Source of the DNA: a virus
Taxonomy: Duplodnaviria; Heunggongvirae; Uroviricota; Caudoviricetes
Direction: 5' to 3' (one strand)
IMG/VR virus record: IMGVR_UViG_2718218133_000008
Span: 1-41,956 of that record
Length of the DNA stretch: 41,956 bases
Part shown: positions 1 through 6,000 of the stretch, piece after piece
Layout of the letters: every line of letters begins with the position of its first letter
Numbering within the stretch: the first letter of the stretch is position 1
Made by a program: the position numbers

Positions 1-3000
1 CACTGTTTATTCATACAGTTAAAAATAATACTGTATACAAACACAGTATAGAGGGATTTTTATGCGTATTGAGATCTGCATAGCCAAAGAGAAAATGACT
101 AAAATGCCAAACGGTGCTGTGGATGCGTTAAAGGAAGAATTAACTCGACGCATCAGTAAGCGTTATGACGATGTAGAGGTGATCGTAAAAGCCACCAGCA
201 ACGATGGCCTTTCTGTTACGCGCACCGCCGATAAAGATTCAGCTAAAACTTTTGTTCAGGAAACTCTGAAAGATACCTGGGAGTCTGCTGACGAGTGGTT
301 TGTTCATTAATTAATACGTAAAATCGATAACGGCTGGAAATCATTCAATACTCGCACTATCGGAAGTTCACCAGCCAGCCGCAGTATTCTGCCATGACAA
401 GTTGCTGCGGCTTTTTATGTTTAACGGATAAACAGCCAGACCAGCAGACACGCCATCACCGGCACAGCAAAATCCATCAGGCTTGCTACATCCCACACGC
501 GCGGATCAAAACCGCCCCACCACGGCATATTCATACGCTTGCCATGTCCGAACATTTCAATCCAGCGATATTCTGCCTGGGTGTGTTCACGCGCAATGAA
601 GAACGTACAACCGGCTATCGCCCCGTAAGCCCAGTTTCCGGTAAAAAGGCCAATCAGTACCTGTGCAGCCACAGCACAAAGTGCATGAAGGAAAGGTGTT
701 ATATCCATTACTCCTCCTTTATCCGATATCGCTTCGGGAAGTTGATAACAACTTTAATTCTGACTCAAGTTCATCAACTCTTTCAGTCAGTTTCTGGATA
801 TGGTGAATCAGTGGAACAACCAGACGTTCGTACATTACACCTTCGGCAACAAGGCCATTGCTGGAAATAGCTTCAGGAGCATCATTCTCGTTAGCTGGTC
901 GCCAGTGAACAAACTGAGGGGCAATTTCTCCTACTTCCTCGGCAATCAATCCATAGAATCCCCAATCGCGCCTGTCATTTTCGCATTGCGACCTGTACCA
1001 CACAGGGCGCATCTTGAAAATGAGATCGGCGTGCTCCGAATCTATCGTCTCTACTGAATGTTTATAGCGGATAGACGATGTGGACCGCAGTACAGACGAA
1101 ATTGCGGGGTCAGGATTAAGATAAAGGTTTGCCGCCGCTGTAGTCGTGCCCAATCCCCACAAATAAAACGCTTCACGACCAGTCAGCGGGTAAAAATCTC
1201 CACCATAACGACCACTTTCCAGATCGTTCACTTCCACTTTGTTTTTCAGCTTATTATCAACTTCAGTTTTTGTGTATCTGGTGCTGATATCCTGCTTTGC
1301 ACTGGTCATATCAGTCTGAAGCGTTGATACTTTTCCGTTAATTGAGGAAATATCTTCCTTGGCTTTACTGACATCTCCCTTTAACGTGGTGATGTCTCCT
1401 GGAATTACTGTCGATGTAGCCATTTGTCTCCCTCACATCCAGCCACGAAGTTGATGCTCAACAACAATCGCGTATTTATCGAATATTGACGATTTTTTTG
1501 CATCATTAATGATGCGCACGTTTACAAAATATCCGTCTTCCTTAACACATACCGGTTCGCCATCTTCAGTCAGTTCTCCGCTTTCTTTGTACACGTTACC
1601 TATCACGTCAATAAGAATATCATCCTGCATCGACTCGTCATCATAATAGCCAATACTCTCCATAAAGGCCGAAAAGTCGGCCCTGTCTGCAAATTTGAGT
1701 GTTAAATCTTTCATTTAATACTCTCCCCCATTTGCGCATCAGTTAATTCTTTATGCCAGATACGCAGATTACGGATATGACCAAAAAGATGATACTCCCC
1801 ATTAGTGCCCTGCCCTCCAATTCGCAATACTGCCCGTGGAACAATTGAAGTCCATGTTGTTTTTGCCGCAACAGATAATTCACCATTACATACGGCCTGA
1901 ACATCTCCATCAGCGCCACAACGTAAGCCTGAAATGATTTTCCTCTGGGTTGTTGCCACATATTTATTACACCCTCCCATAGAAATAAAAGGAGAACCGG
2001 CATCAGAGAAATTATTACCACGGAATCCATGCGTGAACAGACCATTTTCCTGATAATCTTTAACATTAAAGATTAATGGTGATTTGCTGGGAGGGATATC
2101 CCAGTTTTTATTAACTTCAACAAGAGCACTGAATGGTAATCGGTGAATATTGTTTCTTACAGGTATTGTCACCATGTCGCTGGAGCGAGTGCCAGGAGCC
2201 CCTTCAGTAATGATAAATGACGTCCTGTACGACCCAATCTCCGCCTGAGGCATCGCAATATCTAACGTAGAGCCATTGGGGATAATACTGATTCCAGGCA
2301 TCGCCAGGATTTCAAATCTTGAGCTGATTATCATTTCCTCATCTGCAAAAAGAGTGGCGGTAAACAACCACCATTCACCGACTCTTTCTGCCGTCACCGT
2401 CACATTATTTCCATGAACAACATTTCCCGTAACAGGATCCAGAGCTGCATCTGAATGAAAAACAAACGCACCATTATCAGACATTTTTCCGAACCTTGCA
2501 CGACACCGGGAATTATCACTTTTCGTCAGACACGATATCGTCGTATAAGAACCTGCCGGGCAGGTGTAAGCATCATTCGTGTTTACAGCAATTGCCTGAT
2601 ATCCTTGTGCTGTCGGATTTTCATTAATAACAGTTATCCTTCCATAGTTAAACCCATTATCACTGTCGAACGACTCAACAGACACACTACCCGTGTTATT
2701 CCATGCTTCTGGTGTATTTGAATTTCTGAAATAGTTTGTTCTCTGTCCTTCAATCAGCAAACCTTCTCGTTCAAATCGCGGTTCGTCAACTTCAGCAACG
2801 GTTAATACACCTGATTTATTAATGTATGTTGCACCTGATGCGCGTTTGAAGCTAACAACCTTATCGGATGGCATTTTAATAACATCATCACCTACAGTTA
2901 TTTGCTTATAACCAGGCGAAAAGCCAGCAAGCATATCCAGTGAATCGTTAAACGGTATCCACACATCAGGCAGTGGCTGTAAGACATATTTATACGGCTC

Positions 3001-6000
3001 TGCTGCCTGGCTTGCATACTCTCTCGCTGCGTCTTCACTTGCTTTTGCAGCCATCTGGCTTGCAGCGGATGCTTTTGCCGAGTTAGTCGCCGCAGTCTCG
3101 CTCGCCTTTGCGTTGGTTTCACTGGTTTTTGCAGCTTTTTGACTGTTGGCTGATGCAGTGGCAGAAGAAGCCGCCGCACTTGCAGAACCAGCTGCAGCAC
3201 TCTCGCTTTGGGCCGCCGCATCCTGACTGTTTTTCGCCGCAGTTTCGCTGGCTTTGGCATTCGTTTCGCTGGTCTTCGCTGCCGTCTGGCTGGACTTTGC
3301 GTTAGTTTCACTCGTCTTCGCAGCTTTCTGGCTGTTAGCCGCAGCAGTTGCTGATCCAGCTGCTGAAGTCGCAGAACCGGCTGCCGCGCTCTCGCTTTCG
3401 GCTGCTGCAACCTGGCTGTTTTTTGCCGCAGTTTCACTGGCTTTGGCATTCGTTTCGCTGGTCTTCGCTGCCGTCTGGCTGGACTTTGCGTTGGTTTCGC
3501 TCGTCTTTGCGGCTGTCTCGCTGTTTTTCGCGTTGGTTTCTGATTTTTTGGCTGCTGTCGCGGAGTTTGCCGATGCAGTCTGCGAGGTCGCTGCCGCCTG
3601 TGCGCTGTTAGCTGCATTCGTTTCTGAGGTTTTCGCCGCGTTCTTCGATGAAGCCGCTGCAGTTTCGGATTTCTTTGCCGCCGCTGCGCTCTGAGAGGCG
3701 GCTTCGGCGTTGCGTGCCGCTTCTTCCACCATTGCCTCAAAACGGCGCAATGCCTCCGGCATGACATCATCTTCCGTCATGGCACCGAGAAAATCATTCA
3801 GCGTACCTGGTCTGGAACCTTCATAGACGGTAATGGTCCCGGCATGTGAAGGCGGAAAACCTTCAACCAGCAGGGTGACGCTGTACTGGCCATACTCAAC
3901 ATCCATGCTGTAACGTCCGGCTTCATCCGGATTTTCAGAAGCCACCGTGTTCACCAGTACCGTGGTGCTGTTACGCTTTGCCTTCAGTTGAATAGTGCAG
4001 TTCTGTATTGGTTTTCCCGCACCATCTTTCAGCACACCTGAGATTTTTACTGCTGCCATATCCACTCCACAAAAAAGCCCGCCTGAACCGGCGGGCTGTC
4101 ATAACACTGTGTTACCTGGCTAATCAGAATTTATAACCGACACCCACGATGAAACCGTCAGTGCGCCAGTCGCCACTGCCGGAGCCTTCATAAGCAATAT
4201 CAATGGCCACGGATTCGGTCGGGTTAAACTGCACGCCAGCTCCCCACGCCAGAGACGTGTTGCTGTGGCGATCGTCATCACTTCCGGTCAGCACATCGTG
4301 CGTTTTCCCCTTGTTGTCAGTTACGCGGAGATAATCCCCGGAGAACGTCGAAACACGGCTGTAAGCCACACCTGCCATCGCATAAGCACTGAACCATTCA
4401 TTCACGCGTACAGATGGCCCCGCCATCATGCTGAACCAGCGGTTACGCACTGAATCTTCATGCCAGCGGGTATCGCTGTAATGCGTTTTTTGCTCATCTT
4501 TGGCATTGGCATAACTGAATGACGTCACCAGCCCCAGCGTGTCCGTAAATTCATAACGGTATTTCACGTTAATGCCCTTCAGGTCATCACTGCCTGGCAT
4601 ATCAGTATGGGCCTGAAGATACCCGGCGCTTAGTGTGGACTGATGCTCTGCTGCGCTCGCTGGCGTACCAGCGGCAACCAGCCAGACTACTGCGGACAGA
4701 ATAACAGCACATAATTTACGCATAATTACCTCTCGCTTTCCTGCAATAAAAAAGGCGTCATTTCTGACGCCCGTATTGGGGTTATAAAATTCAGCTGATA
4801 CTGATGCCTGCGGTGGCTTTCTTCATCACCACAACCAGCAAATCGCTGATACTTGCTGTGGGATACCAGCCATTTACCCACCATGCTGATACCGAAAACT
4901 CCAGTGTCATTACGCCACTGCCTGCAGGCATATCAATAACACCCGTGTAAATCAGAGTATTATCCAGAGCCGTTCGGTTATAAATTTCAGCCCCGTTTTT
5001 CTTCACTATCAGGCGGCATGACGAATAAGTATCGCTATTCTCCCGTTCATGTCTGGCACCGCTGAAAGCCACCGCTGGAATAACAATTTGCCGGTCAAAC
5101 GGCTGATCGTCATAAACCCTGACGGTAATGGTCCCTGATGGCCACCGTTCCGGTGCACGGGAGTCACGGGGGAAAGCTTTGCCCACTGTTTTAACGAGAT
5201 CGCCTTCAATCTGGTTCGCGGACAGTTTTCCCAGAACCCGGCAGTTCTCGTTAATCGTGACGTTGTTGAGCGTCCCGGAGTTCGCATTCACGTTACCGCT
5301 GATATCGGCATTTTTTGCCGTCAGCCGCCCGTCCGGTGTCAGGGAAAATGCCGGAGGATTACCGCCGCTGGTAATGGTGGGAGCCGTCAGATATTTCAGG
5401 AACACTTCATTCATAAATATCTGATCGCCCTGACCAACAAACATCGGCTTTGTGTTGCCATTCGCAGGATTAATCATCGCAATCCTGTCCGCCGCCAGCA
5501 GCACCTGACTCTGCATACCGTCAGGGGTATTCTCAATACCGGCACCAATACCCGCGATATAAAGGCGTCCGTCCTGCATCTGCTGCAGCTTCACAGCCCA
5601 CATGCTGTTCAGGTTATTATTTGTATCAACCTGAACCTTCTGTATCTGCTGGATCGCTGCACTCTGGTCTTCCAGTTTCTTATTGACGGTCTGTGTGATT
5701 TCATTGCTGACATCCGTAATGGACGTCCTGATTTCAGCCAGGTCAGGCGCAAGCTGACCGTTATCAATCTGCGTCCACAGCTCCTGAGCGAGATGGGTTT
5801 TCCCTATCTCGCCTTTGAAAAAATCCAGATAGCCTGATGCATCATCACTCGGCTGACCGACAGCCTCCACGAATGCCGATTTGCCAACGGTGTTCACACT
5901 GCGAACGTAAAAATAATAATCATGGCCCGGTTTGATATTGATACTGGCGGCTATCCAGTACAGCGCCGTGCCAAGATAGCGGGCTGTGGTTTCAACCTGC

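What the first reader, a model, noticed from the sequence alone, without database searches (positions are those of the whole stretch)
719..4059. Modular side tail fibre: lambda-like N-terminus, repeat shaft and lectin-like C-terminus, followed by a coupled 93-aa gene and an S74-chaperone fibre protein
Seen in sequence: stf has about 189-bp tandem repeats (3242-3305 repeated at 3431-3494) and a C-terminal domain unlike lambda Stf. It is translationally coupled (ATGA) to a 93-aa acidic protein and then a 234-aa protein that is almost only a coiled coil plus an S74 intramolecular chaperone domain. This suggests a swapped receptor-binding module and possibly a second, short fibre; the repeat array is a natural length-variation locus.
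Basis: partly seen in the sequence, partly recalled or inferred. Interest (0 to 1): 0.45.

Follow-up and report, generated by a model that had tools for sequence, protein, structure and literature searches.

The report
Two-part prophage side tail fibre
This E. coli lambda-like prophage carries a common, exchangeable tail-fibre gene set: a long fibre ending in a lectin-like head, a small partner protein of unknown role, and a short self-processing second fibre; it is an ordinary member of a module shared by many coliphages.

Summary
All genes lie on the minus strand.

- **stf (1711-4059, 782 aa):** it has a lambda Stf N-terminus and an Ala/Ser/Thr heptad shaft containing a 189-bp (63-aa) tandem repeat. 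Its C-terminal half shows no similarity to lambda's distal Stf and models as ConA/LamG/pentraxin-like beta-sandwiches.
- **orf93 (1433-1714):** it overlaps the stf stop codon (ATGA) and encodes an acidic protein.
- **orf234 (719-1423):** it consists of a heptad coiled coil plus a Peptidase_S74 chaperone domain with the Ser116/Lys121 dyad.

The same trio occurs in lambdoid, T1-like, Queuovirinae and T5-like phages. In T5-like phage IrisVonRoten it is Gp22-24, published as a proximal fibre with a galectin-like head carrying a distal S74 fibre.

The third gene is an exchangeable cassette of 221-576 aa. All alleles keep the N-terminal peptide MATSTVIPxDIxxLK, and the gene is absent from some viable phages. 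It reassorts freely with the Stf head alleles and is under purifying selection (dN/dS 0.11).

Best reading: a two-part side fibre with two independently swappable receptor-binding ends. The role of orf93 is unknown. Repeat copy number varies from 1 to 3 among relatives, and 2 copies dominate.

This is a new member of a known kind, of modest interest. The tape-measure gene in this window carries two frameshifts.

The parts
4076..4097 (-). Terminator-like hairpin between lom and stf
   Evidence: The stem has 8 pairs (7 G-C) and is followed by a T-run. The sequence was read.
1711..4059 (-). stf, side tail fibre gene (782 aa from the ATG at 4059; the open frame extends to a GTG at 4065)
   Evidence: ORF listed. 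It matches phrog_1419 over its full length. A GGAG lies before the ATG.
3664..4059 (-). Stf N-terminal virion-attachment domain, lambda Stf type
   Evidence: PF08400 matches at E 1e-66. The solved lambda Stf N-terminus 9e7m matches at E 8e-49. The wider N-terminal region plus shaft is 59% identical to lambda orf-401 over 341 aa.
2995..3747 (-). Ala/Ser/Thr-rich heptad shaft (about aa 105-355)
   Evidence: The 7-aa periodicity is visible in the translation. The region resembles the lambda Stf shaft.
3087..3525 (-). 189-bp (63-aa) tandem repeat array, 2.3 copies
Evidence: TRF score 605. Relatives carry 1, 2 or 3 units.
2734..2994 (-). Conserved junction segment (aa 356-442, PLPDVWIPFNDSLDM...)
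   Evidence: It is 72-100% identical across the lambdoid, T1-like, Queuovirinae and T5-like loci compared (40% in the rV5-like locus), whereas the following head is about 30% identical. pLDDT is low in the monomer model, so it may form a trimer or an interface.
2182..2757 (-). Beta-sandwich domain 1 of the head (aa 435-626)
1714..2181 (-). Beta-sandwich domain 2 of the head (aa 627-782), with a conserved LamG-type C-terminal end
   Evidence: Pfam Laminin_G_3 hits the last 57 residues below threshold (16.3 bits against 27.6); homologues score 26-27 bits. pLDDT is mostly 65-89, lower over the last ~30 residues. The last 37 aa are 58-86% identical among relatives.
1433..1714 (-). orf93, small acidic partner protein coupled to stf through the ATGA overlap
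   Evidence: It matches phrog_1361. Homologues overlap the 3' end of the fibre gene in 181 phage records. The AF2 model has pLDDT 87 and finds no informative fold match.
719..1423 (-). orf234, short S74-processed fibre protein
   Evidence: ORF listed. GGGAG lies 4 nt before the ATG. dN/dS is 0.11.
1376..1423 (-). Conserved N-terminal peptide of orf234 (aa 1-16, MATSTVIPGDITTLKG), the proposed docking motif
   Evidence: M1, A2, T3, T5, I7, P8, D10, I11, L14 and K15 are invariant across third-gene products of 225, 234, 345 and 388 aa. The motif is also present in the 574-aa IrisVonRoten Gp24 and at the start of the equivalent gene in the coliphage records hit.
1229..1402 (-). Heptad coiled coil of orf234 (aa 8-65)
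   Evidence: The a/d pattern is I11, L14, V18, A21, I25, I28, V32, L35, M39, A42, I46. There is weak similarity to the P22 gp26 needle coiled coil.
722..1078 (-). Peptidase_S74 intramolecular chaperone domain of orf234 (aa 116-234); predicted self-cleavage before Ser116
   Evidence: Pfam PF13884 starts at residue 116. S116 and K121 are invariant. The domain aligns to a solved L-shaped tail fibre chain, 8hqz_d.
421..708 (-). orf95, small hydrophobic protein; last gene of the cluster, function unknown
   Evidence: AGGAGG RBS follows directly after the orf234 stop. It matches phrog_1443. It is conserved downstream of both third-gene alleles and in two-gene loci.

Best explanation
The locus encodes a two-part (bipartite or branched) side tail fibre built from exchangeable modules.

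**Stf.** This is the proximal subunit. Its lambda-type N-terminus fixes it to the tail tip. An Ala/Ser/Thr heptad coiled-coil shaft, whose length is set partly by a 63-aa repeat, holds out a distal head. The head is two ConA/LamG-like beta-sandwich domains per chain and is a probable glycan-binding receptor-binding domain.

**orf93.** It is made in step with Stf through the ATGA overlap. It is an obligate partner of this type of head, acting either in fibre assembly or as part of the joint. Which of the two is not resolved.

**orf234.** This is an optional second subunit. Its conserved N-terminal peptide would dock on the conserved end of the Stf/orf93 assembly. It would trimerise through its coiled coil with help from its own C-terminal S74 chaperone domain. 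That domain would then cut itself off before Ser116, leaving a 115-aa (12.4 kDa) mini-fibre.

**What is shown:** domain content, gene coupling, homology to the IrisVonRoten Gp22-24 trio, free reassortment of the head and the third gene, purifying selection, and repeat copy-number variation.

**What is inferred:** physical docking, self-cleavage, glycan binding, and the role of orf93.
For: **Same trio in unrelated phages**
- Fibre gene, 91-93-aa gene and S74 gene, tightly spaced or overlapping, occur in lambdoid phages (IdasGreatGrand, 2G7b), Drexlerviridae (KarlJaspers), Queuovirinae (VogelGryff) and T5-like phages (EC104, IrisVonRoten).
- Stf is 43% identical to IrisVonRoten Gp22 over 750 aa (E 3e-154). 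orf93 is 37% identical to Gp23 (E 8e-25). orf234 shares the N-terminal motif and the chaperone domain with Gp24.
- PMC11990801 describes Gp22 as a proximal fibre with a galectin-like C-terminal domain to which the distal S74-bearing fibre Gp24 attaches.

**The third gene behaves like a docked fibre subunit**
- Its products keep an invariant N-terminal peptide and the S74 Ser/Lys dyad, while the middle ranges from a 50-aa coiled coil to domains of receptor-binding size.
- The proteins seen to accompany the third gene in every one of these phage lineages are the Stf head and orf93.
- In 80 IMG/VR loci the 234-aa and 346-aa alleles sit between conserved orf93 and orf95. They combine with 6 and 4 of the 9 Stf head clusters respectively, and 3 clusters occur with both.
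- orf234 has dN/dS 0.11. Drexlerviridae keep stand-alone copies of about 220-231 aa at 57-62% identity.
- Isolated phages (IdasGreatGrand, PhiR49_1, PhiR55_1) carry the 234-aa allele.

**Lectin-like head:**
Against: - No structural or proteomic data show that orf234 or orf93 is in the virion or touches Stf. No multimer prediction could be run.
- The mature part of orf234 is very small and has no recognisable receptor-binding domain.
- BASEL annotators called its homologues 'putative lateral tail fiber chaperone'.
- orf93 is present in phages that lack any third gene, so it cannot be only an adaptor for the second fibre.
- Pfam Laminin_G_3 is below threshold on this protein.
Confidence: 0.6

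Rival explanations
1. orf234 is a stand-alone chaperone that acts in trans. Its S74 domain would help Stf trimerise or fold, and orf234 itself would not be a virion fibre.
For: Database names for homologues include 'putative lateral tail fiber chaperone' and 'chaperone of endosialidase'. Half of the protein is the chaperone domain. The remaining part is tiny.
Against: - Viable phages with a homologous Stf head and orf93 have no S74 gene at all: mEp460_4F5, ev207, ev243 and Dhillonvirus rolling. This head therefore folds without such a protein.
- The 234-aa and 346-aa alleles pair freely with different head alleles.
- Homologues carry large variable middle domains, which is typical of fibres and not of chaperones.
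- From general knowledge, known S74 domains act on the chain they belong to.
Confidence: 0.12
2. orf234 is a genuine short fibre, but it attaches somewhere else on the virion (tail tip, J or collar), independently of Stf and orf93.
For: No direct evidence for the docking site exists. Branched and multiple fibres that attach at different places are known in other phages.
Against: - The N-terminal peptide is conserved across lambdoid, T1-like, Queuovirinae and T5-like phages. The annotated J-like or straight-fibre tail-tip genes in these loci differ widely in size and name (not compared directly), whereas their Stf head and orf93 are shared.
- In every locus examined the gene sits directly after orf93.
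Confidence: 0.15
3. orf234 is a decaying remnant of a longer S74 fibre gene that lost its receptor-binding middle, and it has no function.
For: It matches only the last 240 positions of the 1385-position family phrog_3299. A longer allele of 346 aa occupies the same slot in many prophages.
Against: - dN/dS is 0.11 over 16 distinct alleles.
- The frame is intact and has its own RBS.
- Lytic Drexlerviridae conserve the same length (about 220-231 aa) at 57-62% identity.
- The catalytic Ser and Lys are retained.
Confidence: 0.05

Closest known systems
Lateral tail fibre trio Gp22-Gp23-Gp24 of T5-like phage IrisVonRoten (Bas32), BASEL collection (PMC8594841, PMC11990801)
   Same: Gene order and overlaps are the same. 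Gp22 is 43% identical to Stf over the shaft and head, and the junction segment (Stf 361-425) is nearly identical. Gp23 is 37% identical to orf93. Gp24 shares the N-terminal motif and the S74 domain. The published model is a proximal fibre with a galectin-like C-terminal domain carrying a distal fibre.
   Different: The virion-attachment N-terminus is T5-type rather than lambda-type. Gp24 is a 574-aa T-shaped fibre with two receptor-binding domains, while orf234 has only a coiled coil and a roughly 50-aa tip. The passages of the paper retrieved here do not discuss the small Gp23.
Drexlerviridae lateral tail fibre loci (e.g. KarlJaspers bas06_0035-37, PeterMerian)
   Same: The same three genes are present. 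The S74 protein is 221-231 aa with the same architecture and is 57-62% identical to orf234.
   Different: The fibre N-terminus is T1-type, the locus lies among replication genes, and there is no orf95.
Lambda Stf/Tfa side tail fibre
   Same: The position after J and lom is the same. The N-terminal domain and Ala-rich shaft are homologous (59% over 341 aa; 9e7m).
   Different: The distal half is unrelated. There is no Tfa-type assembly protein. A LamG-like head, orf93 and an S74 protein take their place.
Branched LtfA/LtfB lateral fibres of T5-like DT57C, and phiEco32 gp14/gp15 (PMC4728585, PMC10713586)
   Same: The concept is the same: a second fibre protein hangs on the first through a conserved short N-terminal region, and each carries its own receptor specificity.
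   Different: Homology was not tested here. The tables and passages of those papers retrieved here list no small intervening gene.
Peptidase_S74 intramolecular chaperone domains (K1F endosialidase, T5 pb1)
   Same: Pfam PF13884 is above threshold, the Ser-x4-Lys dyad is present, a C-terminal helix follows, and the domain aligns to a solved L-shaped tail fibre chain.
   Different: Here the domain makes up half of a 234-aa protein, rather than the end of a fibre or spike of about 1000 aa or more (for example the 1076-aa chain).

Membership tests
Lambda-type Stf (prophage tail fibre N-terminal family) | PF08400 N-terminal attachment domain | tested here: met
   E 1e-66, 223.5 bits against a cut-off of 26.6. 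The solved lambda Stf N-terminus 9e7m matches at E 8e-49.
Lambda-type Stf (prophage tail fibre N-terminal family) | Lambda-type distal receptor-binding half with a Tfa assembly protein | tested here: not met
   No similarity to lambda orf-314 (E 2.4). orf93 against lambda Tfa gives E 9.6. None of the genes downstream of stf has a Tfa-family Pfam hit.
Bipartite fibre module of the IrisVonRoten Gp22-24 type | Proximal fibre ending in a homologous galectin/LamG-like head | tested here: met
Bipartite fibre module of the IrisVonRoten Gp22-24 type | Gene of about 92 aa overlapping the stop of the fibre gene | tested here: met
   ATGA overlap. 37% identity to Gp23, E 8e-25.
Bipartite fibre module of the IrisVonRoten Gp22-24 type | Third protein with the conserved N-terminal peptide and a C-terminal S74 domain | tested here: met
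Bipartite fibre module of the IrisVonRoten Gp22-24 type | T-shaped distal fibre with two receptor-binding domains (Gp12-like and T5-like) | tested here: not met
   orf234 is 234 aa. Its mature part is 115 aa of coiled coil plus a short tip, with no such domains.
Bipartite fibre module of the IrisVonRoten Gp22-24 type | Physical attachment of the distal protein to the proximal fibre | not testable with these tools
   No multimer prediction or virion data are available. The claim rests on inference from co-occurrence.
Peptidase_S74 intramolecular chaperone | Pfam PF13884 above the gathering score | tested here: met
   27.5 bits against 22, residues 116-172.
Peptidase_S74 intramolecular chaperone | Catalytic Ser and a Lys five residues downstream | tested here: met
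   S116 and K121 are invariant in five diverse homologues. The spacing rule comes from general knowledge of K1F and T5 pb1.
Peptidase_S74 intramolecular chaperone | Self-cleavage and release after trimer folding | not testable with these tools
   This needs protein expression or virion mass spectrometry.
ConA-like lectin / LamG superfamily (Stf head) | Sequence match to Pfam Laminin_G_3 | tested here: not met
   16.3 bits against a cut-off of 27.6 on this protein. Homologues P0075 and P0116 score 26-27 bits.
ConA-like lectin / LamG superfamily (Stf head) | Beta-sandwich fold of the superfamily | tested here: met
ConA-like lectin / LamG superfamily (Stf head) | Carbohydrate binding | not testable with these tools
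   This needs a glycan array or adsorption assays.
Tail fibre assembly chaperones (Tfa / Caudo_TAP) for orf93 | Sequence or fold similarity to a known fibre chaperone | tested here: not met

The most novel reading that the evidence does not exclude
The orf93 family has 48 representatives among 1.84 billion clustered proteins, and the members examined here come from coliphages and enterobacterial prophages. It could be an undescribed structural connector that sits at the end of lectin-headed lateral fibres and forms a universal socket. Any S74-processed fibre carrying the MATSTVIPxDIxxLK peptide could then plug into that socket. This would explain how lambdoid, T1-like, T5-like and Queuovirinae phages exchange second receptor-binding fibres.
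Probability: 0.3. Interest if true: 0.55.

Novelty: new member of a known kind. Interest (0 to 1): 0.3.

Why it matters
Side tail fibres decide which surface glycans a coliphage can use, so they matter for host range, for phage therapy and for engineered lambda-based delivery particles. This locus shows a clean plug-in design in a widespread E. coli prophage. A lambda anchor and shaft carry a swappable lectin-like head, and a conserved junction carries an optional, independently swappable S74 fibre. Knowing the junction and the docking peptide would give practical splice points for retargeting fibres. The small orf93 protein is the one truly uncharacterised component. Otherwise the module is common and already partly described.

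Tried and rejected
- **orf93 as a Tfa-like chaperone:** no sequence or fold support.
- **PDB sequence search for orf93:** nothing significant.
- **A single-chain Stf-S74 prophage protein (E. coli AH02, 1200 aa) as the ancestor of orf234:** only marginal similarity, confined to the chaperone domain (E 0.1). The link to long fibres therefore rests on the phrog_3299 profile hit alone.
- **NZ_CP099754 as the reference for the tail genes:** its tape-measure region is unrelated, so NZ_OZ501607 was used instead.
- **Opposite-strand and alternative-frame ORFs inside the shaft** (2898-3770 minus, 3254-3694 plus, and others): treated as by-products of the low-complexity repeat.
- **Correlation between orf93 C-terminal variants and the head or third-gene allele:** no clean pattern.
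- **Multimer structure prediction:** not possible with the tools available.

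
Full report
**1. What is there**

All genes of the finding lie on the minus strand, in this order:
- J, 4791-8270
- lom, 4124-4723
- stf, 1711-4065 as an ORF
- orf93, 1433-1714
- orf234, 719-1423
- orf95, 421-708, a fourth small gene

dinI follows on the plus strand (62-310). In near-identical E. coli genomes the next genes are the integrase and dusA, so this is a lambdoid prophage integrated at dusA.

A strong terminator-like hairpin separates lom from stf (4076-4097). 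The probable stf start is the ATG at 4059, with GGAG upstream. It gives MAAVKISG, as in lambda.

The gene junctions read as follows:
- 'ATGA' at the stf stop and orf93 start
- 'TGAGGGAGACAAATG' between orf93 and orf234
- 'TAAAGGAGGAGTAATG' between orf234 and orf95

The four genes therefore form one tightly packed unit.

**2. The repeat**

Tandem Repeats Finder reports a 189-bp period, 2.3 copies, at 3087-3525 with score 605, and 21/42-bp sub-periods. Translated, the shaft is a run of 7-aa AKxSETx units organised into 63-aa super-repeats.

Copy number differs among relatives:
- A protein whose aligned C-terminal 410 aa are 99% identical lacks exactly one unit.
- Among 58 complete genes from IMG/VR loci and phages, the length from the N-terminus to the junction motif is 361 or 360 aa in 54.
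- It is 298 aa (one unit fewer, phage IdasGreatGrand) and 424 aa (one unit more) in one gene each.
- It is 312 and 354 aa (in-register heptad deletions) in one gene each.

The array is therefore a real but infrequently used length-variation site.

**3. Stf**

Residues 3-132 are the lambda-type attachment domain (PF08400, E 1e-66; solved lambda Stf N-terminus 9e7m, E 8e-49). Residues 3-329 are 59% identical to lambda's proximal Stf half, orf-401. The distal half has no similarity to lambda orf-314.

The whole protein matches phrog_1419 end to end, so it belongs to an established family.

By sequence, residues 435-626 match the NCBIfam 'GTA head spike fiber' domain (E 1.3e-17). The last 57 residues give a sub-threshold Laminin_G_3 hit. 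'Lectin-like' is thus supported at fold level. Carbohydrate binding is inferred.

Between shaft and head lies an 87-aa segment (356-442). It is 72-100% identical across the lambdoid, T1-like, Queuovirinae and T5-like loci compared (40% in the rV5-like locus), and its first 65 residues or so are nearly identical even to a T5-like phage. The head that follows is only about 30% identical between alleles. This segment is poorly modelled as a monomer, which fits a trimeric or inter-protein interface.

**4. orf93**

orf93 is acidic (pI 4.3) and has no Pfam or NCBIfam family. It belongs to phrog_1361, of unknown function. The family is small: 48 representatives in a library of 1.84 billion.

In 181 phage records a homologue lies at the 3' end of the fibre gene. 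These span lambdoid phages, Drexlerviridae, Dhillonvirus, Queuovirinae, T5-like and rV5-like phages.

It is present even where no S74 gene follows, in the viable phages mEp460_4F5, ev207, ev243 and rolling. It is therefore a partner of this head type and not merely an accessory of the third gene.

**5. orf234**

Residues 11-46 form five clean heptads. Residues 116-172 match Peptidase_S74 above threshold. The domain aligns to a solved L-shaped tail fibre chain (8hqz_d).

Ser116 and Lys121 are invariant in diverse homologues. They have the Ser-x4-Lys spacing of the catalytic dyad known, from general knowledge, in K1F endosialidase and T5 pb1. Predicted self-cleavage would leave a 115-aa, 12.4-kDa product.

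The gene is under purifying selection (dN/dS 0.11 over 16 alleles). It is kept as a stand-alone gene of about 220-231 aa at 57-62% identity in dozens of lytic Drexlerviridae.

**6. Comparative anatomy**

In every three-gene locus examined, the gene directly after the orf93 homologue encodes a protein with the same N-terminal peptide (MATSTVIPxDIxxLK) and a C-terminal S74 domain. The middle of that protein differs completely:
- 221-225 aa, depending on the start codon chosen (KarlJaspers)
- 234 aa (here)
- 345-346 aa (2G7b type)
- 384-388 aa, depending on the start codon chosen (VogelGryff)
- 574-576 aa (IrisVonRoten, EC104)

In 80 IMG/VR loci the slot between conserved orf93 and conserved orf95 holds either the 234-aa or the 346-aa allele. 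Stf heads fall into 9 clusters that are about 30% identical to each other. The 234-aa allele occurs with six of them and the 346-aa allele with four, and three clusters occur with both.

Head and third gene are therefore independent, freely reassorting modules joined by a conserved block. The block consists of the Stf C-terminal end, orf93 and the N-terminal peptide.

**7. Interpretation**

The simplest reading is a two-part side fibre. Stf is the proximal subunit with its own lectin-like receptor-binding head. orf234 is a minimal distal subunit that docks through its conserved N-terminus and matures by S74 self-cleavage. orf93 acts at the junction as an assembly factor or a structural joint.

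This matches the published description of the homologous trio in T5-like phage IrisVonRoten. There Gp22 is a proximal fibre with a galectin-like C-terminal domain that carries the S74-bearing fibre Gp24 (PMC11990801). It also resembles the branched LtfA/LtfB fibres of DT57C (PMC4728585, PMC10713586).

The argument for docking on Stf/orf93 is indirect. The proteins seen to accompany the third gene in all of these phage lineages are the Stf head and orf93.

The alternative that orf234 is a chaperone acting in trans, as some database names suggest, is weakened in two ways. Viable two-gene phages have a homologous head that needs no S74 protein. The third gene also reassorts freely with head alleles.

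A decayed-remnant reading is contradicted by selection and by conservation in lytic phages.

**8. Novelty and value**

Megablast finds some part of this stf, mostly the conserved N-terminus, in 4816 of 5426 complete E. coli genomes. 110 of them carry at least 80% of this allele. Viable isolated phages carry the same gene set.

This is a new member of a known, partly described kind. What remains open is the role of orf93 and of the very short S74 fibre.

**9. Caveat for experiments**

The tape-measure gene in this window is split by two single-G losses, at about 11885 and 13657, relative to a 99.9% identical relative in which it is one gene. Either the sequence has errors or this copy of the prophage cannot build tails.

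Noticed in passing
window 10662-13725 (minus), indels near 11885 and 13657: The tape-measure gene is split into separate ORFs that match consecutive parts of one TMP family. Compared with a 99.9% identical E. coli prophage that has a single 3066-bp gene, the window lacks one G at each of two sites (GGGG to GGG, and CGG to CG). This is either sequencing error or a tail-defective prophage.
   Followed up: partly
window 421-708 (minus): orf95 is a 95-aa protein with three hydrophobic stretches (phrog_1443, function unknown). It starts 10 nt after the orf234 stop behind an AGGAGG RBS. It is conserved at 89-100% downstream of both third-gene alleles and also in two-gene lambdoid loci. It is absent from the Drexlerviridae locus.
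   Followed up: partly
window 4076-4097 (minus): A strong terminator-like hairpin (8 pairs, 7 G-C, then a T-run) lies between lom and stf. Expression of stf and the downstream genes would therefore need read-through or their own promoter.
   Followed up: no
L001 (NZ_CP099754) 4312-6660: In one closely related genome (the 4.4-kb query is 99.5% identical), RefSeq annotates the same stf as four pieces, including an opposite-strand 'hypothetical protein' and a pseudogene. The repeat shaft evidently causes assembly or annotation trouble.
   Followed up: no
L004, L095, L096, L097 (phages mEp460_4F5, ev207, rolling, ev243): In these viable phages the lectin-headed fibre and the orf93 homologue are not followed by any S74 gene. 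The third gene is therefore optional.
   Followed up: yes
window 2898-3770 (minus, other frame) and 3254-3694 (plus): Long ORFs of 290 and 146 aa lie in other frames across the shaft repeat. They encode Arg/Pro/Gln-rich or Ala/Phe/Leu-rich low-complexity sequence and are most likely by-products of the repeat composition.
   Followed up: no
window 1433-1714, codons 70-85 of orf93: Amino-acid differences among orf93 alleles cluster at residues 72-84, with few synonymous changes. Some pairwise dN/dS values exceed 1, against 0.46 overall. No clean correlation with the head or third-gene allele was seen.
   Followed up: partly
L095 (phage ev207) 3677-6273: In phage ev207 the sitABCD iron/manganese transporter genes lie directly downstream of the fibre module. 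This illustrates that the position holds cargo genes.
   Followed up: no
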